64,000 bases of DNA, from positions 33,490-97,489 of IMG/VR virus record IMGVR_UViG_3300037313_000454; one strand, written 5' to 3'. The translations under genes were made by a program, and so were the position numbers. The notes below the pieces were generated by a model. It saw only the letters and a list, made by a program, of their open reading frames with translations, was not told where the DNA came from and ran no database searches. This document shows, piece by piece, positions 12,984-54,553 of the stretch (the first letter of the stretch is position 1; every line of letters starts with the position of its first letter). This stretch comes from a virus (Duplodnaviria; Heunggongvirae; Uroviricota; Caudoviricetes).

Positions 12984-13233
12984 TACCCTTACCTTCGTAA
13001 GAGCATGTATCAGGATTAACTACTCTCTTGGCAGCCGGACTCGGCTTGTAATAACCTTCAGGAGAACCATGCAGATGCGCCGGGAATGGAATCCCTAGCT
13101 GCTTGCCTGCCCTTTGCTTGCACTTCGGACAATCAATAAAGTCCGTGGCCTCGGCTTCCTTAAAGGTTAGAAATACCTTTTCGGTTGTATGCCCCTTAGG
13201 ACATGTAAAGTCGAATATTGGCATTGCGGCCAA
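12967..13233 (-). CDS. FmdB-family zinc-ribbon protein
   Basis: MPIFDFTCPKGH...CPKC pattern typical of the FmdB zinc ribbon. Confidence 0.5.
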   Translation of the reverse strand: MAAMPIFDFTCPKGHTTEKVFLTFKEAEATDFIDCPKCKQRAGKQLGIPFPAHLHGSPEGYYKPSPAAKRVVNPDTCSYEGKGIVKPG

Positions 13234-39990: not shown

Positions 39991-40370
39991 TTGGGGTGAC
40001 AGACGGGGCTTGAACCCGTAACCATCTGTGTCACTTTGTTGTGCACACTGTGCGGGGGTATTGTCCGCCCAGTCTGAATAACAAATGGTAAGGACTTACG
40101 TATTGCCTTACCGCAGTGCTTTACCTCGACTCGCCATAGTAGTAGACGGAATTCTAGCTGGCCAATGCTGCATCACCGGACGCTAACAGTGAACTTCAGG
40201 GAGTGGTTTGAATCTGTTTGCCAAACAATGGGCCGCGTCCTTGACCTACTACTAACTAGTGTCACGGGGCCTTGCACCCCCGCCGACTGCATTTTCAAAG
40301 GTCTTCGCCAGTATACACCTAATTACGCGGTAATGCACCACTCGATGTAAACTGATTAAGCTACTGTCAC
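39991..40370 (-). ncRNA. tRNA-like-bracketed structured RNA (Y-RNA-like family), about 380 nt, CCA encoded
   Basis: 5' GTGACAG at 40364-40370 pairs perfectly with the 3' CTGTCAC that follows T-arm ACGGG-TTCAAGC-CCCGT. Discriminator C and CCA are at 39991-39993, followed by AAGTTTATG. Confidence 0.45.
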
Positions 40371-40378
40371 CATAAACT

Positions 40379-40628
40379 TGGTGTAGGCAGTGGGACTCGA
40401 ACCCACTTACTGCTTTAATCCGCGCTGTTCTATAGAGACTTATTCTAATGCCCATAGGGACTCACATAGTTACGTCTCTATCTACGCATGGCGGGGACGT
40501 TACAACCACGAACTACTCCGAAGAACAGGCTCGAAAGCGTGACTTCAAGGACGAGAGGCCGAAGCGTCTCTAATAGTGCGTGTTTTGTCGTTGTAACCAC
40601 AGTGTTTTAACCTAATAAACTATGCCCA
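40379..40628 (-). ncRNA. tRNA-like-bracketed structured RNA (Y-RNA-like family), about 250 nt, CCA encoded
   Basis: 5' GTGGGCA-TA-GTTT-ATTAGGTTA-AAAC has a D-arm-like start. The 3' end is GTGGG-TTCGAGT-CCCAC-TGCCTAC-A-CCA. The acceptor pairs 7/7 with one G-U. A UUCG-capped hairpin is inside. Followed by AGTTTATG. Confidence 0.45.
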
Positions 40629-40636
40629 CATTTTGG

Positions 40637-41355: not shown

Positions 41356-41587
41356 GCACTTTTTGCGCTCTAACCCATGCACAATCTGTTTGGTGAGGGT
41401 CTGTCTCGTAGCTATTGCACCATAAACAATATCCCCATTCTTCTCCATAAGGTACAGACGGATTTGCCGCGCCTGTTAATAGCGCACGAAGTGCTTCAAG
41501 TGCTTCATTCATGCTAGCTACCACGGCGGACATAACCCAAGTCCACCCATTTCTTGATTTTGTCGGCCAGTTTCTTGATGCCCTCAC
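41333..41587 (-). CDS. hypothetical protein
   Basis: 84-aa ORF. Confidence 0.35.
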   Translation of the reverse strand: MRASRNWPTKSRNGWTWVMSAVVASMNEALEALRALLTGAANPSVPYGEEWGYCLWCNSYETDPHQTDCAWVRAQKVLDKQLNL

Positions 41588-42305
41588 GGGTCAACCCAGC
41601 CACACCCGGCGCGGTATTGACTTCAAGGACATAGAATCTACCGTCCTTACCTTTGAGGATGTCCACCGCACCGAAGTCCAGTTCCATCGCCGCGACCGAC
41701 TTAGAGGCCAACTCGAACGCTTCGTTCGGCAATTCAGCGAAGGGTACGAACTTGAATGCAAAGCCGTTGCGATAGTTGCACCCGATGAACCGATACTTGT
41801 CAGGGTACACCATCTCTTTTTCGTATGCGCCAAGGTGACGCTTACGATATACCCAAAGACGATACTCCGTCAAGCGGGGAATGTACTCGGTAAAGAACGC
41901 TGCCCCAGCCGCCATACGCCACGACAGTTCTTCGGGTTGGAAGACAGGCATGATGTCCTTGCCGTGCATATGCGTTTCCTTACGCGCCAGCAATGGATAG
42001 GTGGGGGCGTCGTTGCGGTAGTCCCCACCAAGCTGCTCAAGCGACAGGGAACCATCGTCAACTTTCGGAACCCAGACTGGTACGGTACGAATACCACGAC
42101 GAACCAGTATTCCCAGTTCATCGAGCTTCGTGCGTCCGCCTGAATTGGCGTTGAGAGCAGGTTTGCTCCCTGTATACTTCACGCCATAGTTGACGACGGC
42201 ATCCCCGTCGCTATTCACGATTGACAAGCCGCGCTCACGCAGCAACTCGGCCAAAATGCGACCAGTCGGCTGACAATTCGCGGCAACGCGCAGTTCAATA
42301 CTCAT
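41514..42305 (-). CDS. ATP-grasp ligase (RimK-like)
   Basis: ELDFGAVDILKGKDGRFYVLEVNTAPGVAG is the ATP-grasp C-terminal signature. Confidence 0.65.
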   Translation of the reverse strand: MSIELRVAANCQPTGRILAELLRERGLSIVNSDGDAVVNYGVKYTGSKPALNANSGGRTKLDELGILVRRGIRTVPVWVPKVDDGSLSLEQLGGDYRNDAPTYPLLARKETHMHGKDIMPVFQPEELSWRMAAGAAFFTEYIPRLTEYRLWVYRKRHLGAYEKEMVYPDKYRFIGCNYRNGFAFKFVPFAELPNEAFELASKSVAAMELDFGAVDILKGKDGRFYVLEVNTAPGVAGLTREGIKKLADKIKKWVDLGYVRRGS

Positions 42306-42525
42306 TTCGTCTCCATCTCAGCGGCTTCTTGTAGCCGCATGAGCAGTTAAACTTGGGGTCGTAATACTCAGAAACGGTTGGCAGCGCGTCGTATACTTTA
42401 CGACCGCATGAGGGACAGTAGATACGTACTACTGGCCACGGTTTACGCGACGGCGGCTTGGAGGTTGGGTGTTTTGCCATAAGGGAAGCCACCTTTCGTA
42501 CCGACATCCATGCCGGAACTGGCAT
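42295..42525 (-). CDS. zinc-ribbon protein
   Basis: CPSCGRK...CSCGYKK. Confidence 0.4.
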   Translation of the reverse strand: MPVPAWMSVRKVASLMAKHPTSKPPSRKPWPVVRIYCPSCGRKVYDALPTVSEYYDPKFNCSCGYKKPLRWRRNEY

Positions 42526-42724
42526 AGGTACATTTCAGGCAACCCATATACATATGGTACAGGCCGTCTGAGTCAGCGATAGGGAGACGCTTCACAACCA
42601 AGTCATGGTCGCAAAACTGTTCCTCAATGTAGTTAATAATTTTGGTTATCAAAGTAGACACTCGCAAGGTTAGGGAAATTGTTCTTAAGCACTTGACGGA
42701 CGCGGCCAGCGTGGTAAGTGGCAT
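42443..42724 (-). CDS. hypothetical protein
   Basis: 93-aa ORF. Confidence 0.35.
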   Translation of the reverse strand: MPLTTLAASVKCLRTISLTLRVSTLITKIINYIEEQFCDHDLVVKRLPIADSDGLYHMYMGCLKCTYASSGMDVGTKGGFPYGKTPNLQAAVA

Positions 42725-42869
42725 GGAACTTGGTTCCCACGTTTTCAGACGGCTTTACCAAGGTACGGCAGGCAATAGCCGAACTGATTTGTAACGTCTG
42801 GAAATCGCCATACGGCATTCCCAAGACACGGCGGCTGAAAAAGTCACGGATTGCGTATTTAATCTTCAT
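42633..42869 (-). CDS. hypothetical protein
   Basis: 78-aa ORF. Confidence 0.35.
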   Translation of the reverse strand: MKIKYAIRDFFSRRVLGMPYGDFQTLQISSAIACRTLVKPSENVGTKFHATYHAGRVRQVLKNNFPNLASVYFDNQNY

Positions 42870-43345
42870 AAAAACTCCTCTTCATCAGGCGTTTCTGTAA
42901 ACGTGGGTACGTCGTTCCAGCTTCCAAAGCTGGCACTAAAAGTATTCTTCTTTGGTGTTCCAGCGCGTTTGGTTACAACCGCATCTTCAAACACCACGAC
43001 TACACCACGCTCGGCTAAGAATTTATGAATCTTGGACTCACGCTCATCTTCTTTAAGATGGGGGTCATCATTCAGCCGGATAAGCTCTAGTACATCCGCA
43101 GTATCGGCATGGGAGCGGGTCACCATCCAGTGTAGTGGCGGTGCGAACATCTCATTGCGTTGCAACACTTTGTGGGCAACGATAGAAGGTAACCGCTTCT
43201 TATCGCAGTAGTTAGCATAACCCATGTCGCCCAAGATGAATCCGACGATATCGAATTTCTGCGTTTCGGAGTTATACAGGTAGGCGTCTTTTTCAGCCGC
43301 TTCCTTACCGCGATGCCAGCGATTGCGCTGTACGTGCAAAGTCAT
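42866..43345 (-). CDS. hypothetical protein
   Basis: 159-aa ORF. Confidence 0.45.
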   Translation of the reverse strand: MTLHVQRNRWHRGKEAAEKDAYLYNSETQKFDIVGFILGDMGYANYCDKKRLPSIVAHKVLQRNEMFAPPLHWMVTRSHADTADVLELIRLNDDPHLKEDERESKIHKFLAERGVVVVFEDAVVTKRAGTPKKNTFSASFGSWNDVPTFTETPDEEEFL

Positions 43346-43354
43346 GACCGTTCC

Positions 43355-43714
43355 TTAAAGTATGGCATTATAAGGCTCGTTTGGGGTGAGGTTTAGAACT
43401 GTGTAAATCAGTTCCGGTTTGAGGGCAAATGGGTACATACCCTTTTGGCAACGTTTGACAGCCATTTCGCGCACATTGTCGTGAATGTCCGTGAGGAGTC
43501 TTTCCCGCTCTTTGTCGGGAAGACGCACGTTTGACTGGTTGGAGAACACAAGGTACTGGAATTTTGTGACCAATCCCTGTGGGAAACCTTCCCAATCTTC
43601 AGGTTTTTCGCTCTTAAGCATGTTGACCACCTGCTGGGCTTCCATGCAAAGGACAGCTTCCTTCTGTTGCCGTTCAAGCGCGAGGAAGGTGCATAAACAT
43701 TGATTTCTTGTCAT
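43355..43714 (-). CDS. hypothetical protein
   Basis: 119-aa ORF. Confidence 0.45.
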   Translation of the reverse strand: MTRNQCLCTFLALERQQKEAVLCMEAQQVVNMLKSEKPEDWEGFPQGLVTKFQYLVFSNQSNVRLPDKERERLLTDIHDNVREMAVKRCQKGMYPFALKPELIYTVLNLTPNEPYNAIL

Positions 43715-43812
43715 GTGATTTTTGTCACTCCATCAGGGGCAGGGTATCTCTACCCCGCCCCCAACTGTCCATCAGCGTAAGGACTTTAAGAATCCAATAG
43801 CCACTCGCCTTA

Positions 43813-45396
43813 CTAGTGACTTTGCTCGAAAGGGACGACTTCTCCGGGGGTGGATGGCTTATCCACTTCAACTTCCTGATAATGCAGCGGCAGTTTACCG
43901 CCATCATCAGTCATGCGTTCCAACTCTTCCAGCCGTTCTTTAGCGCGTTCCTGATAGGCTTCGTCAGCGGCAGCCGCTTGTTTTTCATAGTCAGCGTCCT
44001 CTTCTGGCGTCTCACCACCCGGAACAACGCCATCGCTGCCGTCGTCCGTGCCCATAGAGAAGCACTGCATACACATGAACGTCTTGTCTTGCGTAGCAAC
44101 CACCATGTCAGAGCCTTCGAGAACGTCGCCACACCCGTCACAATCCATCTTCTGGATTTCATCCGACTTGAACAGAGAGGTCACCATCATAACATCTTCC
44201 GGCAACCGATTCAAGCGGTATCCAGCAATGGTGTCAGGATACTGATTGGCACATGCTTCGCAAGCGAACTCGTCATTCTCCATGACATAGTAATAATCGC
44301 CATCGAAGATTTTGATGCCGCAGTAACCGCACGGCCAATTGTCCTTGGAGTGTTGATGACTGATGTCCTTGGCGGCATTTTCAATCATCCTCTTGATGCG
44401 CTCCGTGGAACTCATGTAGCGGTACTGCGCGTCCGACGTTTTGTCTTCGGTTTTAACAAGCGGTCGGTTATCGGTTCCCATAACGACCACTTTGTCGCTG
44501 CTTTGGCCTTGTGAAAGACGGGGCGTCTGGTTAGTCACAAAGTTCTGACCTGTGGTGCTGTCATGCACCCAGCGGCGTTTCTCAACGCCTTCACTGTCCT
44601 TGTAATTTTCCCAGTGCCCATTCACGTTGTCGTTCTTGCTGTTGCCGAGATTGTGCCAATAGGACTCATTCTCCCAGTCCTGCTCGGTGTAAACGCCATA
44701 CGAAGACTTGGAATTGTCCTGCCACGTACCATACTTACGGGTATCGTAGTCGGCAAATTCAAGCTTCATGTCACGGAAAAGGGAGTTGCCTTCCAAGCGA
44801 TAAAGCTGGTTCTCTTTAAGCTTGAACCACACTGCCCCTTTGAGCAGCCCCGCCATACGCAGTGCGACTTCCAGCGAATCTTTCGTGCTGGCGAAAATCC
44901 ATGCATTCTCGGTACGGGCAAGGGTTAACTCGCCCCCATTGAACCGTCCCAGATAGAGCTTATCGTCCTTCCAAAAGACGATTGCACCGTATGCAGAGAT
45001 TTCGGACAACGGACGTTCTTCTGCGATATGGTAGAAGATATGCTCGGAGTCAACTTCACACTTCCGCTCATATTTCTTCTGCAACTCATCGTGATTGCGC
45101 ACGACCCCATTGTGCATCCCCAGTACGTTCTTGATACGGAATGGGTGAGAGTTGTCCTTCACGGTTGCGCCCGTGGTTGGCTGCCGAGTATGGAGGGCAG
45201 CTTGTTTATGTCCAAGGAAAGTAGCGTTCATTCCCTCAGTGATTTCACCGAGAGATTTGATGATTTGCTCCTTTCCATCCGTCCAACCCCAAGATTTCCT
45301 ACCGCGAGTCTCCATATAAATCGCAAGGATGGGGTATGCAATGTTAATCCTGCTGTCGTACTGGTTCCAGCAAGAGTAGCCAGCTATTCCACACAT
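43813..45396 (-). CDS. class II (Ntn) glutamine amidotransferase with C-terminal zinc fingers
   Basis: N-terminal MCGIAG is the Cys nucleophile after Met. C-terminal CxxC...CxxC pairs follow. Confidence 0.6.
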   Translation of the reverse strand: MCGIAGYSCWNQYDSRINIAYPILAIYMETRGRKSWGWTDGKEQIIKSLGEITEGMNATFLGHKQAALHTRQPTTGATVKDNSHPFRIKNVLGMHNGVVRNHDELQKKYERKCEVDSEHIFYHIAEERPLSEISAYGAIVFWKDDKLYLGRFNGGELTLARTENAWIFASTKDSLEVALRMAGLLKGAVWFKLKENQLYRLEGNSLFRDMKLEFADYDTRKYGTWQDNSKSSYGVYTEQDWENESYWHNLGNSKNDNVNGHWENYKDSEGVEKRRWVHDSTTGQNFVTNQTPRLSQGQSSDKVVVMGTDNRPLVKTEDKTSDAQYRYMSSTERIKRMIENAAKDISHQHSKDNWPCGYCGIKIFDGDYYYVMENDEFACEACANQYPDTIAGYRLNRLPEDVMMVTSLFKSDEIQKMDCDGCGDVLEGSDMVVATQDKTFMCMQCFSMGTDDGSDGVVPGGETPEEDADYEKQAAAADEAYQERAKERLEELERMTDDGGKLPLHYQEVEVDKPSTPGEVVPFEQSH

Positions 45397-45408
45397 AATT
45401 GTTCGTCC

Positions 45409-47076
45409 TTAATCGTTCGTATCTAGGGATTGGTGCGCAAAAGCATCTTGTATCATCTGCTTAAAGCGCGGCATTTCATTGTCCTGCTGTTCCCACTTCG
45501 TTTTTGCATATTCTTGCAATTCACGGGGCAGGATAGCAAGTAAAGCTTCTCTCGAATCACGCGGCAACTGTCGAATCTGCTGCTCACTCATCTTGGAAGC
45601 GGCTTCCACTACATGACCGCAGATGAGTGCCCAGTTGACAATCTCGTTGTAATCCGTAGTTCCTTCTTTGTGTCGGAATTCCACCGTACCACGCATGAAG
45701 AAACTATGCAAGTTCAACGCCTTGTAGCGGACATCCTCATACTTATGAGACTTTGTCTTTGCCAACGCCGCGCCAATCTTGCGATATTCCTCTGACTTCT
45801 TTCGTTCGGGAACCATTGCGTACACTGGCGCACCAGTCTCGTCATAGCGAATCAGTTTACGCACTTTCTTGACGGGGAGCTTCTTCTTGTCTTTGCCACG
45901 AGTGTTCTCCGGCAACTTTGCTCCGTCCCGGTACATCTTGCTCAATTGTTCCTTACGGAAATCTTTCGGGTTCGTCTGCTTGGTCAGGTAGAACCTGCCA
46001 CAAGGCCGCGAATAACGGCTTTCCAAGCGGACAGGGTTAACCAAGCCAAACATAGCCTGCTCAACCCTGTAATACAGCATCACCAAACGCCGCAAGTCAT
46101 AATGGGTATATGCCGAACGCTGGTCATACACCATATCGCCTTGCGAGTTAGTGATTACCGTACCATCGTCCTTGACCAATGGAGTTCCTTTGACATTGAT
46201 GTGAACGTGCATACCGCAGGAAGTAGAACAGCCCGCCTTGATGTCAGCCAGACCGTCGCACAGTTCCTTAATATGCGTCAGGAACATATCACCGTTGCAA
46301 GGGTTAGTGTTAATCTCGAAACCGCCTTCATCGAGTGAACCGTCGCGCACCACCGGGTCTTTCCACTTGTTAATGGCGTTGTTGACCTTTGTACTGCGGC
46401 GGTTACGGTCTACTTTATCGACTTCCATCTCGACGGAGATGTGACGGCGCAATGGGTTGCGTTTAAACTGTCCTTTAGCAAATACCGAGTGGAACATCTG
46501 GAATTTGCCGTTGCGGAAGTCAACTCCGGTCATGTTACATGCACAACACCTGTGGCATAGACCACACGGCCTTTCTTCAGTGAAGTCATACCGTAAAGAG
46601 GTATGGAAATTGCTCTCAGACATCTCGGTGTAGCGGCGATTGCACTGTTCACAACGTACACAAGCGCAATGGTCTTTACACTGCTGGCAAGACTGGCAGA
46701 ATCCCCTGCGACTGGTCGTATGCATACTGTTATGCTGACACACAAGCTCTGCGCAGTGATTATGACAATGATGGCAATAGTTGCACCATTCTTCAGTCCG
46801 CTCTTTGTACGTGTTACCTTCAGGACACTTGGGACAAATCCAGCATTTGCAACACTTACCGAGACACAGTAAGCAGTTCTGACATAACACATCACTGCTG
46901 CGGGAAACCATGGTAAGGCAGGCACGACACGCCATACAGTTGCAGCAAGACTCAGCACAACGGCCACAGCCGGGGCACAGTTCTTCTGGTCGATAAGTGA
47001 TGCCGCAATTGCTACACGTACTGCATTCTGTGCATTGCGGTAGCCCACAACCGAGACAGTTTTCAAGTACAGGCAT
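45409..47076 (-). CDS. Cys-rich protein with C-terminal amidoligase-like (GS-fold) domain
   Basis: About 200 aa N-terminal with more than 60 Cys. The C-terminal part has EGGFEINTNP...GMHVHIN, resembling ORF 48604..49491. Confidence 0.4.
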   Translation of the reverse strand: MPVLENCLGCGLPQCTECSTCSNCGITYRPEELCPGCGRCAESCCNCMACRACLTMVSRSSDVLCQNCLLCLGKCCKCWICPKCPEGNTYKERTEEWCNYCHHCHNHCAELVCQHNSMHTTSRRGFCQSCQQCKDHCACVRCEQCNRRYTEMSESNFHTSLRYDFTEERPCGLCHRCCACNMTGVDFRNGKFQMFHSVFAKGQFKRNPLRRHISVEMEVDKVDRNRRSTKVNNAINKWKDPVVRDGSLDEGGFEINTNPCNGDMFLTHIKELCDGLADIKAGCSTSCGMHVHINVKGTPLVKDDGTVITNSQGDMVYDQRSAYTHYDLRRLVMLYYRVEQAMFGLVNPVRLESRYSRPCGRFYLTKQTNPKDFRKEQLSKMYRDGAKLPENTRGKDKKKLPVKKVRKLIRYDETGAPVYAMVPERKKSEEYRKIGAALAKTKSHKYEDVRYKALNLHSFFMRGTVEFRHKEGTTDYNEIVNWALICGHVVEAASKMSEQQIRQLPRDSREALLAILPRELQEYAKTKWEQQDNEMPRFKQMIQDAFAHQSLDTND

Positions 47077-47085
47077 ATCTATCCT

Positions 47086-47322
47086 TTATGCGAAGAGAAC
47101 CCGTTGTTTAATGACTTTTCCATCAGGTAAGGTCGTAATTTTGAGTAACCGATGGTCGCACTGGGTACAACCCTCTAATATCTTGCCGTACACTTCAGCA
47201 AGGCGGCGATTAGGCCACGCATTGGAGTCATTTTCCCAATGTTTGTGCTTCTTGCTCTTACGTTGCCATTGGTAATGAACGGTAGGTTTCATAGAAATCT
47301 TGTGTACAGATGGCGAATACAC
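47086..47322 (-). CDS. hypothetical protein
   Basis: 78-aa ORF. Confidence 0.35.
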   Translation of the reverse strand: MYSPSVHKISMKPTVHYQWQRKSKKHKHWENDSNAWPNRRLAEVYGKILEGCTQCDHRLLKITTLPDGKVIKQRVLFA

Positions 47323-47386
47323 CCGCTGATTTGGGGTATACAGTTACAGACAAACTGTAGGGCTGATGGAAGAATGACGGTTTCGA

Positions 47387-47710
47387 TTACGCACATGCCT
47401 TGTCTTCGACCTCATGGAGACGATGGACGTTAAGGAAAAGTTCCAGTGGATTGTCGGCGCGATAATAGCCGACAGTTTTGCCGTACTGCCGTATGACCTC
47501 ATACCACTTCCCGTCTTCGTCGAACCGGATGTAGCCAAACCACATCTTTTTGGTATGATGATTAGCTACCTTAGACGTATCGTTTTCCAATTCGTCTACC
47601 TTGGCTAAGTCAATCTGCATCTCGGTGCTGTCGAAGATTGTTCCAGCCGTTGGTCGTTTCAAGAACTGGTCAAACGTGTTATCTTCGATAGGTAATGCTT
47701 GGAAACTCAA
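47387..47710 (-). CDS. hypothetical protein
   Basis: 107-aa ORF. Confidence 0.4.
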   Translation of the reverse strand: MSFQALPIEDNTFDQFLKRPTAGTIFDSTEMQIDLAKVDELENDTSKVANHHTKKMWFGYIRFDEDGKWYEVIRQYGKTVGYYRADNPLELFLNVHRLHEVEDKACA

Positions 47711-47730
47711 GGGATTACTCCTGATTGTTG

Positions 47731-47760
47731 GTTATACCGCAACAACTAGTTCTTTGTCAA
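47731..47760 (-). promoter_or_regulatory. sigma70-type promoter, TTGACA-18-TATAAC (minus strand)
   Basis: Reverse complement of 47755-47760 is TTGACA and of 47731-47736 is TATAAC. Confidence 0.4.
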
Positions 47761-48595
47761 GTGAATTCAATAGCGGTTGTTTAGCTAGCTCGAAGGCCGC
47801 TCTAGCCGCTATGTAAGATTTGGTCTGAACTTTGGCACGATGGGTTATACGACCGCGAGTGGAGGAAATAACGTAACCCTCAAAGTTATCTCTCGTCTCT
47901 TCCGCCAAGTTAGTGAAATCCTTGGCGGCATAACAGCGGGGCATAGGAACACGGTATTCGTTAGCCCAACGACGTTGGTCAATCCTAGACCATTCAGACG
48001 AATCCAGCGTGAACGATATCAATACCAGCCCTTGGTAGGGATAATTGACTACTTTCTTAGTCTGTTCAGACAGTATTTCAAAGGTTGGATACGCCGAACG
48101 CGCCCATTTTATACCGTTATCATTAACCCATTTGGTAGCCCATTCTGATACAGGGTCTTCAAATCCACGGCGAGTGACCACGCCATAGTGTGTGCGGTAA
48201 CCGTTGGTGGTGTACTGCCAACCCAATCCCTGCTCACCGTCTACTTTTTCGTATACCTGAACGTAAGACGGGTCTTCTTCTTTCCATTCTTTATAGGTGC
48301 GAAGTGTAGTACAGCGGGATTTTAGCACAGGGTCGTTAACCGCACCGCGAAGCGGGTAGATACGCGATATGGCGCGAGAGATGATGTTATGACGAAGGTC
48401 GCTCTCTTCGCCATGGTACATCAGCATGTCAAACTTATCTAAATGCGGCCCCCACGAGCGGGATTTATCAACCGCTTCCCTGTCAACAACCAACAGAGTC
48501 AGCGGCAGGTTTGGGTGCTTGAATTTCTTGTACCAGCCACTAGCCACATATTGGTCGAGAACGGCTGGGGCGTAAATGTCTTCCAACCAAGGCAT
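47732..48595 (-). CDS. putative ATP-dependent RNA/nucleic-acid ligase (nucleotidyltransferase motifs)
   Basis: Motif I-like EKVDGEQG (KxDG), motif IV-like EGYVISS and motif V-like HRAKVQTK. Confidence 0.4.
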   Translation of the reverse strand: MPWLEDIYAPAVLDQYVASGWYKKFKHPNLPLTLLVVDREAVDKSRSWGPHLDKFDMLMYHGEESDLRHNIISRAISRIYPLRGAVNDPVLKSRCTTLRTYKEWKEEDPSYVQVYEKVDGEQGLGWQYTTNGYRTHYGVVTRRGFEDPVSEWATKWVNDNGIKWARSAYPTFEILSEQTKKVVNYPYQGLVLISFTLDSSEWSRIDQRRWANEYRVPMPRCYAAKDFTNLAEETRDNFEGYVISSTRGRITHRAKVQTKSYIAARAAFELAKQPLLNSLDKELVVAV

Positions 48596-48603
48596 CGTCG
48601 CTC

Positions 48604-49491
48604 CTAAGCGATGTGCTTAAAGTTTTCCCAACGGGGTTTCATGTCTTCGTCGAGACGGGGCGCGAACTTCTCAAGCGTCTCCATCTTGTCGTTCTTGAGG
48701 ATGCGCTTGGCCACCACAGCCGCGTCGAAATCGACGTTCTGGTAAGCCCGGAAGAACTTGACCAGCTTTTGGAACTTAGCTTCCTTCGTTCCCCGCAGCG
48801 GCAGCATCGTCTTGGCGAAGCCGGGATTCAACGCCGCCAACTTGGTCGCCGTGAGCATAATCATGGCGTTGTGCGGGTCAAACAACCAACTGCACGGTGT
48901 GCGGTACTCGGTGCGGTAGAAATGCGTTCCGTCCGCACTTTGCGTCTGTGTGTTTGCAATCGCCGTAGCGCCGAACTGACCGTAACCAGCCGGGTCAGTA
49001 CGCCGTCTGTCAGATTCTTCGCCGGGAAGCAAGTCGATGCTTTCCATGACTTCCGTGATGCGGTCACAGGCGTTCAGCCGCTCATCGAACACCTTGTCGG
49101 GGACACCATGCTTGCCTTTGAACGGCAGTTCCAGATGGATGTGGCCACCAATGGACATGTGACGTGGCGACCGAGAATATTCATCTTCCACCGGGGCGTT
49201 GGTATGTGTCACGACAGACGTGTACGGCACAAACGCTCCACTACGCCAGCGGAACTTACGGAACGGGCGTCCGGTCGGGCTTTCAAGGATGTCCTTGAGT
49301 TCATTGACGATGTCGGACGTGAAGTAACTGGCTGGGGGACGAAGCTCCACGCAATAGCCGCCGTGGTCTGCCCCGAAGCCCGATGAATTCACGTTACCGA
49401 CGGTGATGAGAGTGGTCGGGTTCTGCGGGTCTACCACGCAGAATTCCGGGTCACAACCCACTTTAAACGGGTTGACGTGCATTTTTTGCAT
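48604..49491 (-). CDS. amidoligase-like protein (glutamine-synthetase fold)
   Basis: VGCDPEF, GYCVELRP and GGHIHLELP blocks. Paralogous to the C-terminus of 45409..47076. Confidence 0.4.
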   Translation of the reverse strand: MQKMHVNPFKVGCDPEFCVVDPQNPTTLITVGNVNSSGFGADHGGYCVELRPPASYFTSDIVNELKDILESPTGRPFRKFRWRSGAFVPYTSVVTHTNAPVEDEYSRSPRHMSIGGHIHLELPFKGKHGVPDKVFDERLNACDRITEVMESIDLLPGEESDRRRTDPAGYGQFGATAIANTQTQSADGTHFYRTEYRTPCSWLFDPHNAMIMLTATKLAALNPGFAKTMLPLRGTKEAKFQKLVKFFRAYQNVDFDAAVVAKRILKNDKMETLEKFAPRLDEDMKPRWENFKHIA

Positions 49492-49642
49492 ACGCTGTGT
49501 CCTTTGGGAAAAGGTTTCATTGTCAAGCGGTTAGCCGCTTCGTGAGACACTGAATTCCTCACAATCTTAAACGGTTGCGACCCGTTTTAAAAGAAAGGTG
49601 TACTCTCAGTGACTCACGCAGAGGCTAACTCTGCGCTGGTTG

Positions 49643-50449
49643 TTACTTAACCGGAAGCGTCGGCACTGCATTCCCGCCGACTAGGAACGTACAAGTCGAA
49701 TGCGAACAGGCGTCGCGCTGCATCTTGATTGTCTCAAGGGCAATGTATTGCTGGGGACTCAGTTGCATGGCGACACGATAGGCATTGTCAGCTTCAGCAC
49801 GGCTCAACTCTGCCGCTTTACGCTGGTCTTCAGCCAATTTGCGCTGTTTCTCTGTGTTCACCCGTTGTTCTTGTGCCGCCGTCTCGATACGCTGGCTCTT
49901 GATAGAGTCCGGGGGATTGGCTTTTCCGACCGTGACCTGAATCAGCTTGATAGGCAGACCGGAGTCTCGGATGTACTGTTCCATTGCGCCGGACACTTCA
50001 TTGTCGATGGCTTCAATGGCCGTGGTACTGATAGCGGTTTCGTTCATTCCGTGTTTTCGCACAGCTTGTCGGACACGGTTGCGGAACTCCATCTCCACGT
50101 TTTTGTCATACCACTTGTCACCGAATTTACTGATAAGAGTTACGGAGTCAGTGACTTGCAGTCGGATGATTCCATCGAAGTCCAGTGGTACACCGTCGGA
50201 CGACATCAAGTCGTCGAAGTGTACGGAGAACTGTTGCGGCTGCATGTTCACCACTACCTCTTCTGTGCTGATGGCGATAACCTGCCGACCAGCCTTGACG
50301 GGCTGGGGGTCAACGCCACCGCTGCCGAAGATGTAGGGCTTTTTGATAAGCACCGCTTCATGCCCCGCATCGGGGGCTGAGAATCCACAGCCGATGAGTG
50401 ACAGAGACAGCACCAAGATGAAGGTGAGAGTTGTCAGTGTTTTTGTCAT
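49643..50449 (-). CDS. SPFH/band-7-like lipoprotein
   Basis: Lipobox LSLSLIGC. Central SPFH-like region. C-terminal coiled coil. Confidence 0.45.
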   Translation of the reverse strand: MTKTLTTLTFILVLSLSLIGCGFSAPDAGHEAVLIKKPYIFGSGGVDPQPVKAGRQVIAISTEEVVVNMQPQQFSVHFDDLMSSDGVPLDFDGIIRLQVTDSVTLISKFGDKWYDKNVEMEFRNRVRQAVRKHGMNETAISTTAIEAIDNEVSGAMEQYIRDSGLPIKLIQVTVGKANPPDSIKSQRIETAAQEQRVNTEKQRKLAEDQRKAAELSRAEADNAYRVAMQLSPQQYIALETIKMQRDACSHSTCTFLVGGNAVPTLPVK

Positions 50450-50483
50450 TGTTTTCCTTTTCTACCACAAAATCTTTATTTTG

Positions 50484-50729
50484 TCAAGCTTTTTCTAGAC
50501 CCAGCTTCTTGCGCCTGTTGTGCCACCGCCTAGCCGCCCGTCTAGCGGCTTGTTCATCATAAGGCTTACCTTGGCCTTCTCTATGCTTCGCACACAGGTT
50601 TACGACCACCGTATCCGCAGGCTTACCGTGGTAGATTTCATGCTCACCGTGGAAGATGAACAGGGGTTCGGCGTGAATCTCAGTGCAACGCACTAAGTCT
50701 TCATCTAATGCTTGGCATCTGGTACTCAT
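50484..50729 (-). CDS. hypothetical protein
   Basis: 81-aa ORF. Confidence 0.4.
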   Translation of the reverse strand: MSTRCQALDEDLVRCTEIHAEPLFIFHGEHEIYHGKPADTVVVNLCAKHREGQGKPYDEQAARRAARRWHNRRKKLGLEKA

Positions 50730-50974
50730 GCGGCTGGTTCTCCAAATTCAATAGTGCCATCGTCGTTTATACAGAGCCAAATCTCTTCGTCACCAAAGTC
50801 TAAATGAAGCCACAAACTAGACCGTTCTCCTTTTAGACCGGAGACACGACATAGATGTGGGTTCTGGATGAATTCCCTTAGCGATTTCTTAAACTCTTCC
50901 ATGTTGTTACCATTCAACATGAAACAGGTGTTAGCTTTTGGTTCTATTTTGCCGTAAAAGTGCGTGATTGCCAT
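50726..50974 (-). CDS. hypothetical protein
   Basis: 82 aa. Its ATG is the ATG of the AACTTTATG motif that follows the upstream tRNA-like RNA. Confidence 0.45.
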   Translation of the reverse strand: MAITHFYGKIEPKANTCFMLNGNNMEEFKKSLREFIQNPHLCRVSGLKGERSSLWLHLDFGDEEIWLCINDDGTIEFGEPAA

Positions 50975-50983
50975 AAAGTTATT

Positions 50984-51234
50984 GGGGTGACCGACGGGAA
51001 TTGAACCCGCGTAACGTCGGTAATAAGTAGCTTCCCTGTAATCAGGGACGAAAAGCTGTTTACGGAATGAGCCGGATTAGCACTTGGACATTGTCACAGG
51101 CGTTCACCATGAATCTTGAGCGGTTACTAGCTTTCGGAACTAGTCACTCGGCATTACGGTCTGACCGCATAACTTACTTCTTTTCAACTACTTATGACCG
51201 ATATGTTGTCTTCACCGTTTAAACGACGGTCACC
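50984..51234 (-). ncRNA. tRNA-like-bracketed structured RNA (Y-RNA-like family), about 250 nt, CCA encoded
   Basis: 5' G-GTGACCG at 51227-51234 pairs with the 3' CGGTCAC that follows T-arm GCGGG-TTCAATT-CCCGT. Discriminator C and CCA are at 50984-50986. An extra 5' G faces C73. Confidence 0.45.
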
Positions 51235-51239
51235 ATACC

Positions 51240-51614
51240 TTAATTCGTGAAATGTTGAATGCCCTTGTAAACCCCGTCCGCTATGAGAATGTCATGTTGC
51301 GACAAGTCACGTACCTCACCGACGTAAGCCAGTGCCTCTACAAAAGTATCCCCGACCAAAACTTTGACCGGGACTTTGTGATACCCAATCTCAAGGCGGT
51401 CGATGTAATGCATTGCCTTGTCTGTGACTTCGTAAAGTTCACCCTTTACTTTGTATGAGTCGTATGGTATCGCGGCTGGTACGCCGCCGTAGATAAGGAA
51501 AAGAGCGTAGTTACGAAGGGTGGCTTCCCCTAGGAAGCGGGACTGGGTGAGGGACAGGTACTTGTGATTGGCGTAATGCCGTTTGAGAGTGCCGTAGACA
51601 AAGAGCTTGGTCAT
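51240..51614 (-). CDS. gamma-glutamyl cyclotransferase (AIG2/GGCT-like)
   Basis: N-terminal FVYGTLKR, the YGTL signature. Confidence 0.6.
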   Translation of the reverse strand: MTKLFVYGTLKRHYANHKYLSLTQSRFLGEATLRNYALFLIYGGVPAAIPYDSYKVKGELYEVTDKAMHYIDRLEIGYHKVPVKVLVGDTFVEALAYVGEVRDLSQHDILIADGVYKGIQHFTN

Positions 51615-51694: not shown

Positions 51695-51901
51695 TTAACC
51701 GGGGTAGACGCAATTTATCGCCACAGTGTGTAAGACATCTTTGCCAAAATACTCGTCTTGGCGTGTGACTTCGACTTCGATGCAGTCAACCTTTGTTAGA
51801 ATCTCTTCAACAAGAGCCATTAGCTGTTTTTTAGCCGCTTCATGCTGTTGCTTTCTGCGTTCATCGTCACCGCCGCAGAAGTCATAACTGTCATAAGTCA
51901 T
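51695..51901 (-). CDS. hypothetical protein
   Basis: 68-aa ORF. Confidence 0.35.
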   Translation of the reverse strand: MTYDSYDFCGGDDERRKQQHEAAKKQLMALVEEILTKVDCIEVEVTRQDEYFGKDVLHTVAINCVYPG

Positions 51902-52791
51902 GCGTAGAACTCCAAGTGTACGTCCGCTATCAGCTTCGATATAGCGGCACGGTCTACTTTTTCAGGTAGGGAAGATTTGTCACGGGCTTTCTCAGCCTCA
52001 GCGCGGATTTGCTCACCCATTTCCTGTAGCTCGGTCAGCTTGTACTTACCGCGCCGAATATCTTTTAACACTTCGACTTCAGGCCGGGGATAGGTGATTC
52101 GTCCATCTTCCATCAACTCTTTCGCCTCAGACAGCAGCCGGATGATGTGCATGGCATACTTGGTATCGTAGCCATACAAATCAACGAGCTTATCGCGGTT
52201 GATATTCTTCTGTCCCCTGAGTCCCATGAGGCGTTCCATCTGGTCTTGGGCGTAATAGATGAACGGCCAGTAATGGGACTTGGCAAGGAAAATCAATGTA
52301 TTGTCGAGAATACGTTGCCATGGTTCCAGTACAAGTTTTTCTTCGCCGTCACCGTCACATACAGTACAAGGTTCAACATCATAGGATGTTTCGCCAGCAC
52401 CGTAACAACGGTAGCAAATATCGTTATGCTCTTTTGTGTACTGGAACTCTAAGGTGGAAAACAGGAAGCTGAGGACGGTGGGATTGCCCTTAGCCACCAT
52501 ACCAGCCCACTTCTGCAAACTGTGCAGGGCAATGTCTACTTCGCCCGGTTCGCGTTCACCACGACTACGTTTGGTAGTGTCGCCGGGATAGACGAAATGC
52601 TCGAACGCGTCGATGCCCAGCGTCTTCTCTTTGGGTGGGATGAAGATACCGTAGTAATCGGTGTCGCTCTGACCGCCACAATCATCAGCCCGTGCCCCAT
52701 GTTGCGTGGAGCCGCCGATAAAGGCCATGATGAGATTGTCAGGGTAAGGAAAGCCGTGTTTGGCTAGGATTTCTTGAATGGACATATTCAC
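51898..52791 (-). CDS. Pol-beta-superfamily nucleotidyltransferase
   Basis: GGSTQHGARADDCGGQSDTDYYGIF is the hG[GS]...D.D nucleotidyltransferase signature. C-terminal Cys cluster. Confidence 0.5.
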   Translation of the reverse strand: MNMSIQEILAKHGFPYPDNLIMAFIGGSTQHGARADDCGGQSDTDYYGIFIPPKEKTLGIDAFEHFVYPGDTTKRSRGEREPGEVDIALHSLQKWAGMVAKGNPTVLSFLFSTLEFQYTKEHNDICYRCYGAGETSYDVEPCTVCDGDGEEKLVLEPWQRILDNTLIFLAKSHYWPFIYYAQDQMERLMGLRGQKNINRDKLVDLYGYDTKYAMHIIRLLSEAKELMEDGRITYPRPEVEVLKDIRRGKYKLTELQEMGEQIRAEAEKARDKSSLPEKVDRAAISKLIADVHLEFYA

Positions 52792-53651: not shown

Positions 53652-54553
53652 AGAACTCCTGTTAGCTCTACTTTACAGCTTATGGGATTATTGCCGACGG
53701 GAACAGGCGAAAACGGATATTTTCGTGTGCTACCGTTACACTAACGCCCTACCGATTAGGCAGGACGTATGGGAGTCGAACCCATACCACGTCATCCAGA
53801 GTGAAGTAACCGTTCTCTTCACCACGTCAGCAAACTTTAAGGGCGGGAACAGGCGACAAGGCTCTTTTTGCCGATTGCTCTACCAGACTGAGCTATCTCC
53901 CTCACATTCTTAGGGAGAGTGGGATTCGAACCCACGACCCATCGTTCCGATTGAAGTATTCCTTATCTACACCACGCCCAAACTTTAAGTGAAGGGAACA
54001 TTTGGTAACAGGTATGCCGTGTCCTTTGGCGATTCTTTACCCCTTGCGGGGCGGGGACGGACTCATACCCTTCGCATGTAAGAAGTAACTGTTACACATC
54101 ACCACTTCACAAACTTATGCGTGACCCCGTTATTCAGGCAATCAAAGCCCGATTAAAATGCCAGCACCAAGCCTTTCGACAAGGGGGAGGCCAACATGCG
54201 TTATGGGTTCTAGGGACGATTACTCTCCATACATCGTCACCAAAGGTCACGCTTGGCAGGGCAAGTCATAAGCTTCCTATCCCTGCAAACTTAGCTTAGG
54301 AGAACAAGCGACACGGCACGTTTATTCACCAATTGAAGAAGTATCCGTATCTTTCACTACCTAAGCAGAATTTACTCGGGGCACTCGGATTCAGTTGAGT
54401 CTGAGCTAGGTGAGGTTACGGATTAGCCTAGCTTTTGTAGCTCTTGCACCACCGTAACGATACGGCAAGAGACGTACTTACAGAGTAACTGTCGTCTCGA
54501 ACGCTTTTACACTAGCCCCGAACTTTGAAGTCCCGCAGTGTATCCAGTTGCGC
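53652..54553 (-). ncRNA. tandem array of Y-RNA-like tRNA-mimic modules (at least 4 units)
   Basis: 900-nt ORF-free region. Units are delimited by (T)TAAAGTTTG at about 53831, 53979, 54110 and 54286. Two units carry T-arm (GTGGG-TTCGAAT-CCCAC; ATGGG-TTCGACT-CCCAT) plus 3' acceptor strand, then 8-10 nt, then the complementary 5' acceptor strand plus D-arm (AGGGAGA-TA-GCTC-AGTCTGGTA-GAGC; AGGGCGT-TA-GTGT-AACGGTA-GCAC). Unit ends pair with each other. Confidence 0.5.

What the first reader, a model, noticed from the sequence alone, without database searches (positions are those of the whole stretch)
41514..51614. Peptide-ligase / amidoligase style gene set
Within 10 kb on one strand there are an ATP-grasp ligase (41514..42305), a class II glutamine amidotransferase starting MCGIAG (43813..45396), two paralogous amidoligase-like GS-fold proteins (the C-terminus of 45409..47076, and 48604..49491, sharing G.E.E...G.H.H blocks), and a gamma-glutamyl cyclotransferase (51240..51614, YGTL). 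The 45409 protein also has an extraordinary N-terminal domain of about 200 aa with more than 60 Cys. This enzyme combination is characteristic of systems that build or remove peptide or gamma-glutamyl tags on proteins or metabolites. Its target in a phage is unknown.
Basis: partly seen in the sequence, partly recalled or inferred. Interest (0 to 1): 0.6.

Follow-up and report, generated by a model that had tools for sequence, protein, structure and literature searches.

The report
Phage amidoligase module with cysteine-rich ligase
This uncultivated soil-type phage carries the phiEco32-type set of amide-bond-forming enzymes, known by computation since 2009 and still untested, here with an unusual cysteine-rich metal-binding domain on the central ligase and with RNA-repair genes scattered through it.

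Summary
They are a RimK-like ATP-grasp ligase, a class II (Ntn) glutamine amidotransferase, an Amidoligase_2 ligase, a phiEco32-type COOH-NH2 ligase and a GGACT cyclotransferase. One detail is wrong: the N-terminal domain has 39 Cys in 200 aa, not more than 60.

The set is not new. Gene content and gene order match the phiEco32 and LUZ24-like module. In 84 viral loci the amidoligase is usually followed directly by the amidotransferase.

- **Cys-rich domain.** Repeats of CxxCxxCxxxCCxCxxCxxC are conserved in frame. They occur in 31 of 77 non-redundant phage amidoligases, and 30 of those 31 sit next to an amidotransferase (p = 4e-9). The phiEco32 prototype lacks the domain, and no Pfam or PDB match explains it.
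- **Distant relationship.** The two GS-fold ligases are related only at superfamily level.
- **Mosaic region.** The 10 kb also holds an Rnl1-like RNA ligase and Band_7. RlaP, a TROVE protein with a YrlA-like RNA, and three odd tRNA-like RNAs lie beside it.

The substrate is still unknown. My best guess is ATP-dependent addition and trimming of a Glu/Gln-derived amide on a macromolecule. I classify it as a new variant of a known kind, of moderate interest.

The parts
51240..51614 (-). GGACT/AIG2-like gamma-glutamyl(amine) cyclotransferase, 124 aa. It counts as part of the module by precedent (phiEco32 gp77, UFV-P2 ORF29). Here it lies 4 kb upstream of the core rather than after the ATP-grasp gene.
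   Evidence: Pfam PF06094 8.8e-21; PHROG 2520 2.3e-12; phmmer against phiEco32 gp77 2e-4; YGTL at 7-10 and GEL at 58.
48604..49491 (-). phiEco32-type COOH-NH2 ligase type 2, 295 aa, a GS/GCS2-fold carboxylate-amine ligase.
   Evidence: PF14395 4.1e-6, 26.7 bits against a cut-off of 25. Ten homologues all carry PF14395; invariant DPEF, ELRP, GGHxH and EYRT blocks. AF2 pLDDT 89.6. Foldseek YbdK 1r8g 2.6e-6, then many glutamine synthetases.
45409..47076 (-). Central ligase, 555 aa. Residues 1-195 form the Cys-rich repeat domain. Residues about 196-555 form the Amidoligase_2 GS/GCS2-fold catalytic domain.
46492..47076 (-). Cys-rich N-terminal domain of the ligase. It has 39 Cys in about five repeats of roughly 31 aa, pattern CxxCxxCxx(x)[C/H]CxCxxCxxC. 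It is predicted to bind metal, probably zinc.
43813..45396 (-). Class II (Ntn) glutamine amidotransferase-like protein, 527 aa. It has an N-terminal glutaminase domain and a long C-terminal tail with two CxxC...CxxC zinc ribbons. It starts 12 nt after the ligase stop codon.
   Evidence: GATase_6 2.2e-7; NCBIfam PurF and GlmS N-terminal hits from model position 1; MCG at 1, HTRQ at 69, HNG at 95, DSE at 116; Cys pairs at 356/359, 379/382, 419/422, 442/445; phmmer against phiEco32 gp83 1.6e-10.
43355..43714 (-). Conserved small ORF g119, function unknown, between the GATase and ATP-grasp genes.
   Evidence: Homologue in the same slot in L003 (124 aa) and L086 (127 aa). No Pfam or PHROG hit.
42866..43345 (-). 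Conserved small ORF g159, function unknown, with an acidic C-terminus ...PDEEEFL.
   Evidence: Homologue in L003 (187 aa) and L086 (169 aa) in the same slot. No family hit.
42633..42869 (-). Conserved small ORF of 78 aa, function unknown.
   Evidence: Called as a gene in L001 and L002. A positional homologue is present in L003 and L086.
42295..42525 (-). Small zinc-ribbon protein g76 (CPSC...CSC). Its stop overlaps the ATP-grasp start by 11 nt.
   Evidence: Sequence. Conserved in L003 (...CPACKRRVYEALPTVSEY...CACG...). Overlap.
41514..42305 (-). RimK-like ATP-grasp amino-acid (glutamate-type) ligase, 263 aa.
   Evidence: PF08443 1.1e-5; PHROG 2599 3.4e-20; NCBIfam MptN, CofF and RimK C-terminal hits, all far below the equivalog cut-offs; PDB RimK 5zct 5.4e-5, aligning VDIL and EVN; phmmer against phiEco32 gp80 2.3e-11.
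47732..48595 (-). Interleaved gene that probably belongs to the RNA-repair set, not to the amidoligase chemistry. It is an Rnl1-family RNA ligase, 287 aa, with the nucleotidyltransferase domain only.
   Evidence: PHROG 562 6.5e-8. 30% identity, E 3e-24, to the PF09511 protein in the same slot of L003. KVDG at 117, EGYV at 239, KVQTK at 255.
49643..50449 (-). Interleaved SPFH/Band_7 protein with a lipoprotein signal (…LSLIGC). Whether it belongs to the module is uncertain.
   Evidence: PF01145 1.4e-16; PHROG 200 'lipoprotein' 2.1e-22; N-terminus. Absent from relatives L003 and L086.

Best explanation
This is a phiEco32-type phage amidoligase module, expressed among early and replication-region genes.

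**Proposed chemistry.** Three ATP-dependent carboxylate-amine ligases activate a carboxylate and join it to an amine. They are the Cys-rich Amidoligase_2, the COOH-NH2 ligase and the RimK-like ATP-grasp enzyme. Together they would build a small Glu/Gln-derived amide or isopeptide moiety.

**Core unit.** The conserved core is the Amidoligase_2 ligase plus the class II glutaminase encoded just downstream. I infer that the two work as one complex. Either the glutaminase supplies ammonia to the ligase's acyl-phosphate, giving glutamine-dependent amidation as in MurT/GatD or GatCAB. Or it hydrolyses a gamma-glutamyl amide that the ligase made, as in EgtA/EgtC. GGACT would release 5-oxoproline from gamma-glutamyl-amine intermediates.

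**Likely target.** The ligase carries a large poly-Cys domain and the glutaminase carries zinc ribbons. For that reason I favour a macromolecular target, a host or phage protein first, over a free metabolite.

**Shown versus inferred.** Shown: family and fold of each enzyme, intact catalytic motifs, conserved gene order, co-conservation, and the link between the Cys-rich domain and the GATase. Inferred: complex formation, reaction order, the metal bound, and the target.

**Separate module.** The Rnl1-like ligase, Band_7, RlaP, and TROVE with its YrlA-like RNA most likely form a separate RNA-repair module that shares the same stretch of genome.
For: - Family assignments.
- GS/GCS2/PafA fold of both ligases.
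- Catalytic motifs present: Cys2, Arg71, Asn96-Gly97 and Asp116 in the GATase; D215 and E228-x-N in the ATP-grasp enzyme; ExE, GxHxH and E(F/Y)R in both GS-fold ligases.
- Same content and order as phiEco32 gp86-gp77 and UFV-P2 ORF21-29, with significant pairwise matches to gp80, gp83, gp84 and gp77.
- Across the loci fetched (84 IMG/VR amidoligase loci plus relatives and phiEco32), the ligase is immediately followed by a GAT-II gene in 39 pairs. Thirty-one of those gaps are 42 nt or less, and several overlap.
- COOH-NH2_lig almost always comes with the ATP-grasp gene.
- Cys-rich N-domains occur in 31 of 77 non-redundant ligases. Thirty of the 31 are adjacent to a GAT-II gene, against 15 of 46 Cys-poor ligases (Fisher p = 4e-9).
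- The partner GATases are the MCG type with C-terminal CxxC ribbons.
- Only 6 weak relatives turned up in 185,579 species genomes, so the family is essentially viral.
- Neighbouring genes in many loci are replication or recombination genes.
Against: - No enzyme of this module has been characterised in any paper I could search. All chemistry here is by analogy.
- The founding paper (Iyer et al. 2009, PMC3268129) is not held. I know its content only through citing papers and from memory.
- The ammonia-supply and gamma-glutamyl-hydrolase roles for the GATase cannot be told apart from sequence.
- GCS2/YbdK-type ligases usually join amino acids rather than ammonia.
- Relatives L003 and L086 keep only the ligase, GATase and ATP-grasp genes. 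They lack COOH-NH2_lig, GGACT and Band_7, so the five-enzyme pathway is not obligatory.
- GGACT lies 4 kb away here, separated from the core by RNA-repair genes.
- Zinc ribbons do not prove a macromolecular substrate.
- The ATP-grasp and COOH-NH2_lig Pfam scores are close to threshold.
Confidence: 0.55

Rival explanations
1. The module is a small-molecule pathway. The ligases gamma-glutamylate or amidate a free amine or acid, such as a polyamine, an amino acid or a short peptide. The GAT-II protein and GGACT remove the gamma-glutamyl handle, as in PuuA/PuuD or EgtA/EgtC. The product would be an auxiliary metabolite, or a host metabolite would be destroyed.
For: - The closest solved structures include enzymes that gamma-glutamylate small amines: gamma-glutamylmethylamide synthetase, 1-naphthylamine GS, GCL and YbdK.
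- NCBIfam gives a weak EgtC hit for the GATase.
- The ATP-grasp enzyme's best NCBIfam hits are the cofactor-tail glutamate ligases MptN and CofF.
- Seventeen of 46 Cys-poor ligases pair with GGACT, whose known substrates are small gamma-glutamyl amines.
Against: - A 190-aa poly-Cys domain on the ligase and zinc ribbons on the GATase are unusual for enzymes that act on metabolites.
- No transporter or other metabolic genes are linked to the module.
- The family is nearly absent from cellular genomes, which is odd for a metabolic pathway.
Confidence: 0.2
2. The module is a DNA base hypermodification pathway. The ligases and amidotransferase decorate a modified pyrimidine or purine in phage DNA with an amino-acid-derived group, which would help the phage evade restriction.
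For: - Lee et al. 2021 (PMC8989533) report amidoligase and glutamine amidotransferase Pfam domains co-occurring with thymidine-hypermodification genes in viral metagenome contigs.
- The module lies among replication and nucleotide-metabolism genes: ThyX, RNR, dNMP kinase, methyltransferases.
- CxxC-rich domains can bind DNA.
Against: - No 5-hmdU kinase, aGPT-Pplase, ThyA-like dUMP hydroxymethylase or TET/JBP was found among the 50 window ORFs scanned. Only ThyX was seen.
- The recurrent neighbour families across the viral loci are generic replication genes.
- phiEco32 and LUZ24, which carry the module, are not known to me to have hypermodified DNA (from memory).
Confidence: 0.1
3. The amidoligase genes and the interleaved RNA-repair genes form one system that acts on tRNA or tRNA-like RNA. 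It might reinstall or alter an amino-acid-derived base modification, or amidate an RNA-bound amino acid in the manner of GatCAB.
For: - An Rnl1-like ligase sits 8 nt after COOH-NH2_lig.
- The Rnl1-then-ligase adjacency is kept in L003 and L086, together with PNKP and RlaP.
- TROVE lies within 10 kb of the module in L013 and L015. L013 also has an RNA ligase downstream.
- Three tRNA-like RNAs and a YrlA-like RNA bracket the block, and they are conserved in position in L003 and L086.
Against: - phiEco32, LUZ24-like phages and most of the 84 viral loci have the module without any RNA-repair gene.
- The window, L003, L086 and perhaps L013 may simply share ancestral gene order.
- None of the enzyme families has a known RNA substrate.
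Confidence: 0.08
4. The genes are unrelated and merely lie next to each other. There is no functional module.
For: - Intergenic gaps of 150-340 nt and foreign genes break up the run.
- Relatives lack three of the five enzymes.
Against: - The same five families occur in the same order in phiEco32 and in LUZ24-like phages.
- There is strong ligase-GATase adjacency and a strong Cys-domain/GATase association.
Confidence: 0.03

Closest known systems
phiEco32 gp86-gp77 and LUZ24-like (UFV-P2 ORF21-29) amidoligase module. This is the prototype for Pfam PF14395 'Phage phiEco32-like COOH.NH2 ligase-type 2' and for PF12224.
   Same: - It has the same five families: COOH-NH2_lig, Amidoligase_2, GAT-II, RimK-like ATP-grasp and GGACT.
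- The order is the same: ligase2 - x - Amidoligase_2 - GATase - small ORFs - ATP-grasp.
- Both lie in the early or replication region.
   Different: - The window's Amidoligase_2 carries a 195-aa Cys-rich domain. phiEco32 gp84 has only 13 residues before the catalytic domain.
- GGACT has moved upstream.
- An Rnl1-like ligase and Band_7 are inserted.
- Sequence identity is very low. COOH-NH2_lig against gp86 is not significant pairwise.
Pupylation enzymes PafA (Pup ligase) and Dop (deamidase/depupylase)
   Different: - No Pup-like small protein ending in GGQ or GGE is present. The small ORFs end in NAIL, EEFL, NQNY and RNEY.
- The partner is an Ntn glutaminase, not a Dop paralogue.
- YbdK, GCL and GS are closer structurally.
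Two-component glutamine-dependent amidating ligases, such as MurT/GatD (peptidoglycan iGlu amidation) and GatCAB
   Same: An ATP-dependent carboxylate-activating subunit is encoded next to a separate glutaminase subunit, and the two genes are tightly coupled.
   Different: The folds differ: Mur ligase with class I GATase, or GatB with an amidase, against a GS fold with class II GATase here. Complex formation is only inferred here.
Gamma-glutamyl handle pathways: EgtA/EgtC (ergothioneine) and PuuA/PuuD (putrescine)
   Same: A GS/GCL-fold ligase adds gamma-glutamyl and a GATase-like hydrolase later removes it. EgtC is a class II GATase homologue and gives a weak hit.
   Different: Those act on small molecules in cellular metabolism. 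They have no Cys-rich or zinc-ribbon domains and no ATP-grasp partner.
RimK (ribosomal protein S6 poly-glutamate ligase) and the MptN and CofF cofactor glutamate ligases
   Same: The ATP-grasp C-terminal ATP/Mg site aligns (VDIL...EVN) with solved RimK.
   Different: Scores are far below the equivalog cut-offs, for example 27.9 against 143 bits for rimK_fam. The N-terminal half is divergent. It is not an orthologue.

Membership tests
phiEco32-type phage amidoligase module | Amidoligase_2 (PF12224) ligase present | tested here: met
phiEco32-type phage amidoligase module | Class II glutamine amidotransferase encoded immediately downstream of the ligase on the same strand | tested here: met
   The gap is 12 nt. 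The same adjacency occurs in 39 pairs across the loci fetched and in phiEco32 gp84/gp83.
phiEco32-type phage amidoligase module | Second GS-fold ligase of the COOH-NH2_lig (PF14395) family upstream | tested here: met
   26.7 bits against a cut-off of 25. Homologues are all PF14395. Fold confirmed. The pairwise match to gp86 itself is not significant.
phiEco32-type phage amidoligase module | RimK-like ATP-grasp ligase downstream of the GATase, after small ORFs | tested here: met
   phmmer against gp80 gives 2.3e-11. Four small ORFs lie in between.
phiEco32-type phage amidoligase module | AIG2/GGACT cyclotransferase adjacent to the ATP-grasp end of the cluster | tested here: inconclusive
   GGACT is present (8.8e-21), but it lies at the other end, 1.7 kb upstream of COOH-NH2_lig, with Band_7 in between.
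Class II (Ntn) glutamine amidotransferase | N-terminal nucleophile Cys directly after the initiator Met, plus the Arg, Asn-Gly and Asp glutamine-binding residues | tested here: met
   MCG at 1-3, HTRQ at 69, HNG at 95, DSE at 116. The PurF model aligns from position 1. Residue roles come from established knowledge of GlmS and PurF, not from an assay.
Class II (Ntn) glutamine amidotransferase | Fused acceptor (synthase) domain that uses the ammonia | tested here: not met
   The C-terminal 300 aa has no synthase domain, only two CxxC zinc ribbons. An acceptor would have to be a separate protein.
RimK / alpha-L-glutamate ligase equivalogs | Full-length match above the NCBIfam cut-off | tested here: not met
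   rimK_fam 27.9 against 143.4 bits; PRK10446 25.9 against 331 bits. Only the C-terminal 60 residues align.
Pupylation-like protein tagging system | Small disordered tag protein with C-terminal Gln or Glu encoded in the cluster | tested here: not met
   None of the conserved small ORFs ends in Q or E.
4Fe-4S polyferredoxin | Paired CxxCxxCxxxCP motifs with a ferredoxin fold | tested here: inconclusive
Thymidine hypermodification cluster (Lee et al. 2021) | 5-hmdU kinase, aGPT-Pplase, and a dUMP hydroxymethylase or TET/JBP nearby | tested here: not met
   None was found among the 50 window ORFs scanned with Pfam. Only ThyX was seen. Small ORFs were not all scanned.
Rnl1-family RNA ligase (for 47732-48595) | Nucleotidyltransferase motifs I (KxDG), IV (EGxV) and V (KxK), plus the C-terminal tRNA-specificity domain | tested here: inconclusive
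   Motifs I and IV are present. Motif V reads KVQTK. The C-terminal domain is absent: the protein aligns to residues 1-260 of a 399-aa PF09511 protein. There is no Pfam hit of its own.

The most novel reading that the evidence does not exclude
The Cys-rich Amidoligase_2 and its zinc-ribbon class II glutaminase together form a previously unrecognised, phage-specific kind of two-subunit glutamine-dependent amidotransferase or ligase. The poly-Cys metal domain would dock it onto a macromolecule. In this phage lineage that target would be tRNA or the tRNA-like RNAs that bracket the block, which would tie the module to the interleaved RNA-repair genes. This would be a viral enzyme system that chemically edits RNA-borne carboxylates or amino acids to escape or repair host anticodon-nuclease attack.
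Probability: 0.07. Interest if true: 0.85.

Novelty: new variant of a known kind. Interest (0 to 1): 0.42.

Why it matters
This module is widespread in phages, including the coliphage phiEco32, LUZ24-like Pseudomonas phages considered for therapy, marine OM43 phages and archaeal viruses. In the literature I could search, no substrate had been assigned some 17 years after its computational description.

This window adds a concrete handle. A poly-Cys domain is statistically tied to the glutaminase partner. That points to a defined ligase-glutaminase complex that can be purified and tested for metal content, activity and binding partners.

If the target is a host protein or nucleic acid, this would be a new type of viral takeover chemistry, comparable to phage ADP-ribosylation. 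If not, the finding remains one more member of a known but unexplained family.

Tried and rejected
- **DNA and protein similarity to isolates.** Megablast of the 10 kb against 50,697 phage records found nothing. tblastn of the ligase found only two 30%-identical Manatee Spring contigs. COOH-NH2_lig found nothing. No close cultured relative carries this version.
- **Close paralogy of the two GS-fold ligases.** Rejected by phmmer (E > 1) and by hhalign (probability 1%).
- **Polyferredoxin reading of the Cys domain.** The PDB hit is composition-driven, so I left this as inconclusive.
- **Spread of the Cys domain by single-sequence search.** phmmer against 1.84 billion representatives returned only two proteins. 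This understates the spread, because motif counting in viral loci found the domain in 31 of 77 ligases.
- **Pup-like tag among the small ORFs.** Not found.
- **Thymidine-hypermodification partners.** Not found.
- **Clues from recurrent neighbour families across the viral loci.** Only generic replication and recombination genes appeared.
- **Informative domains fused to long ligases in other phages.** Pfam sees only Amidoligase_2.
- **Cellular homologues.** Six weak hits in 185,579 genomes.
- **Literature.** Iyer et al. 2009 (PMC3268129) and Burroughs & Aravind 2016 (PMC5062991) are not held. Statements about them rest on citing papers or on memory. No experimental paper on PF12224 or PF14395 was found.
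- **Promoter and terminator scan.** No better than shuffled sequence.

Full report
**1. What is there**

The region lies in a long run of minus-strand genes. Read in the direction of transcription, from high to low coordinates:

| Coordinates | Product |
|---|---|
| 51614-51240 | GGACT |
| 50974-50484 | two small ORFs |
| 50449-49643 | Band_7 lipoprotein |
| 49491-48604 | COOH-NH2 ligase |
| 48595-47732 | 287-aa ligase-like protein |
| 47710-47387 | small ORF |
| 47076-45409 | Cys-rich Amidoligase_2 |
| 45396-43813 | class II glutamine amidotransferase |
| 43714-42295 | four small ORFs |
| 42305-41514 | ATP-grasp ligase |

A sequence search of the PDB aligns the ATP-grasp C-terminus with solved RimK.

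The expected catalytic motifs are present:
- GATase: MCG at 1-3, HTRQ at 69, HNG at 95, DSE at 116.
- ATP-grasp: VDIL at 214, EVN at 228.
- GGACT: YGTL at 7.
- Both GS-fold ligases: ExE or DPE, then GxHxH, then E(F/Y)R.

**2. Fold check of the two ligases**

The 295-aa protein has a pLDDT of 89.6. It matches YbdK at 2.6e-6, then many glutamine synthetases.

Both are therefore GS/GCS2-fold carboxylate-amine ligases. They are not close paralogues. phmmer gives E > 1, and hhalign of their family alignments recovers only the GxHxH block.

**3. The Cys-rich domain**

The first 200 residues hold 39 Cys, not more than 60. They form about five repeats of roughly 31 aa, with the pattern CxxCxxCxx(x)[C/H]CxCxxCxxC.

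Public gene calls had cut this region off. JGI starts the protein at Met182, and a Logan call put a 178-aa ORF in another frame. Fifteen metagenomic homologues at 31-57% identity keep the region in frame, with 16 invariant Cys. The domain is therefore real.

Its nature is unexplained:
- It has no Pfam match.
- A PDB profile hit to the polyferredoxin MvhB is dominated by composition bias.
- Cys and His interchange at one ligand position, which suggests zinc. This is an inference.

**4. Is it a known system?**

Yes. phiEco32 encodes gp86 (COOH-NH2_lig), gp85, gp84 (Amidoligase_2), gp83 (GATase), gp82, gp81, gp80 (ATP-grasp), gp79, gp78 and gp77 (YtfP/GGACT), in that order. The LUZ24-like phage UFV-P2 has the same series in ORF21-29 (PMC3890496).

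Window proteins match gp80 (2e-11), gp83 (2e-10), gp84 (8e-6) and gp77 (2e-4).

Later papers attribute the module's description and its proposed role to Iyer et al. 2009. That role is cell-wall or protein modification, or synthesis of a secondary metabolite. The same papers state that the function remains to be explored (PMC10580990, PMC11706807). I could not read the 2009 paper itself. I found no experimental work.

**5. Co-conservation**

I fetched 84 IMG/VR loci anchored on the amidoligase. I searched their ORFs with iteratively built profiles.
- The ligase is immediately followed by a GAT-II gene in 39 pairs across the loci fetched. The typical gap is 12-18 nt, and several pairs overlap.
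- GGACT occurs in about 36 of the loci fetched, the ATP-grasp gene in 13, and COOH-NH2_lig in about 10. COOH-NH2_lig nearly always occurs together with the ATP-grasp gene.

The core is therefore ligase plus GATase, with an accessory pair of COOH-NH2_lig plus ATP-grasp.

Relatives of the window phage (L003 and L086, 53-55% identity in the ligase) keep the Cys-rich ligase, the GATase, three small ORFs, the ATP-grasp gene and a DksA-type zinc finger. They lack COOH-NH2_lig, GGACT and Band_7.

Only six weak relatives exist in 185,579 species genomes.

**6. A new regularity**

Counting Cys upstream of the catalytic domain shows that 31 of 77 non-redundant phage Amidoligase_2 proteins have at least 8 Cys there, in the same CxxCxxC...CCxCxxC style.
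- Thirty of these 31 are adjacent to a GAT-II gene, against 15 of 46 Cys-poor ligases (Fisher p = 4e-9, odds ratio 62).
- None of the 31 is adjacent to GGACT, against 17 of 46 Cys-poor ligases.

The partner GATases are the MCG-type proteins with one to three C-terminal CxxC...CxxC ribbons. phiEco32 gp84 has no such domain.

The single-sequence search that returned only two proteins therefore understates how widespread the domain is.

**7. Mechanism**

By analogy with GS, GCL and PafA, each GS-fold ligase should form an acyl-phosphate and pass the acyl group to an amine. RimK-type ATP-grasp enzymes add glutamate to a carboxylate. GGACT cleaves gamma-glutamyl-amines to give 5-oxoproline.

The tight, conserved ligase-GATase coupling suggests a two-subunit enzyme. 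It would do one of two things:
- glutamine-dependent amidation, as in MurT/GatD or GatCAB; or
- gamma-glutamyl addition followed by removal, as in EgtA/EgtC or PuuA/PuuD.

The metal-binding extensions on both subunits make a macromolecular target more likely than a metabolite. This is an inference.

I found no 5-hmdU pathway genes that would support a DNA-hypermodification role, although Lee et al. 2021 noted such co-occurrence elsewhere. No Pup-like tag protein is present.

**8. The interleaved RNA-repair genes**

- 47732-48595 is 30% identical (E 3e-24) to a PF09511 Rnl1 protein that occupies the same slot in L003. It keeps KVDG and EGYV but lacks the C-terminal domain.
- 51898-52791 is RlaP.
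- 55000-56355 is a TROVE/vWA Ro60-like protein.
- A YrlA-like tRNA-mimic domain lies at 53873-53943 (41 bits, E 2.5e-7, below the gathering score).

RlaP and TROVE are described as RNA-repair components in phages (PMC7824862).

L003 and L086 add PNKP. L013 has TROVE and an RNA ligase near its module.

Because phiEco32, LUZ24-like phages and most of the viral loci lack these genes, I treat them as a separate module that shares the region. A functional link keeps a small probability.

**9. Context**

The window is a phage replication and early region. It holds ThyX, class II RNR, RecA, a primase-helicase, helicases, phosphoesterases, PD-(D/E)XK and HD proteins, a dNMP kinase and an M15 peptidase.

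The nearest isolates by primase-helicase are the Tunturiibacter (Acidobacteriota) phages Tunturi_4 and Tunturi_3, at 43% and 36% identity. Identical proteins occur on contigs of up to 97 kb from JGI and Logan metagenomes.

**10. Verdict**

The gene set is a new variant of a known, experimentally uncharacterised phage module. Its most useful new feature is the poly-Cys domain linked to the GATase partner.

Noticed in passing
window 50983-51233 (-) and 39992-40372 (-): Two paralogous long RNAs of 252 and 380 nt. In each, the 5' end (GGUGACCG or GGUGACAG) pairs with the 3' end (CGGUCACC or CUGUCACC), followed by CCA and preceded by a T-arm-like hairpin. The one difference in the closing stem is compensatory. 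The shared 26-nt 3' pattern occurs exactly twice in the window and never in 100 shuffles. The first RNA folds with z = -2.8; the second with z = -0.6. Together they bracket the whole Band_7-to-DksA block. The same 3' motifs sit at equivalent positions in relatives L003 and L086.
   Followed up: partly
window 40379-40629 (-): With introns allowed, ARAGORN calls a tRNA-Val(UAC) carrying a 166-nt insert after position 37. It lies directly downstream of the DksA-type zinc-finger gene. Rfam sees only its T-arm and no group I intron. L086 has a matching 3' end (...CGCCTACACCA) at the equivalent place. It could be an intron-bearing or expanded tRNA, possibly matured by the phage's own RNA ligase.
   Followed up: partly
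window 53873-53943 (-), downstream of 55000-56355 (-): A partial match to the tRNA-like domain of YrlA, the bacterial Y RNA (41.1 bits, E 2.5e-7, below the gathering score of 69). It lies downstream of a TROVE/vWA Ro60-like gene. This looks like a phage-encoded Ro/Y-RNA pair.
   Followed up: partly
window 47732-48595 (-): A shortened Rnl1-family RNA ligase of 287 aa, with the nucleotidyltransferase domain only. Motif V reads KVQTK instead of KxK. Relatives have a full 399-403-aa PF09511 protein in the same position.
   Followed up: yes
window 45409-47076 (-); loci L001 and L002: Public gene calls for this protein are wrong. JGI starts it at Met182 (374 aa), and the Logan call places a 178-aa ORF (window 46530-47066) in another frame over the Cys-rich region. 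Cys-rich coding sequence seems to mislead gene finders, so such domains may be under-reported in databases.
   Followed up: yes
IMG/VR loci L018, L022, L026, L029, L030, L034, L036, L053: Many viral contigs have two Amidoligase_2 paralogues flanking the GATase (ligase-GATase-ligase), often both Cys-rich. This is a different way of having two ligases from the Amidoligase_2 plus COOH-NH2_lig arrangement seen here.
   Followed up: no
window 11729-15586 (-) and 11112-11600 (-): ThyX, a SAM methyltransferase, an NAD-dependent epimerase/dehydratase and a glycosyltransferase lie in a row. A fragment-like C5 cytosine methylase ORF is nearby. This could be a sugar-modification cassette, acting on DNA or on the cell surface.
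   Followed up: no
window 522-5648 (+): A 1708-aa ORF on the opposite strand with no Pfam match at all.
   Followed up: no
loci L003 (3-2302) and L086 (1-1894): Relatives of this phage encode NAMPT (nicotinamide phosphoribosyltransferase) and a second phosphoribosyltransferase just upstream of the RlaP/PNKP/Rnl1 block. This is an NAD-salvage pair of the kind linked to counter-defence.
   Followed up: no
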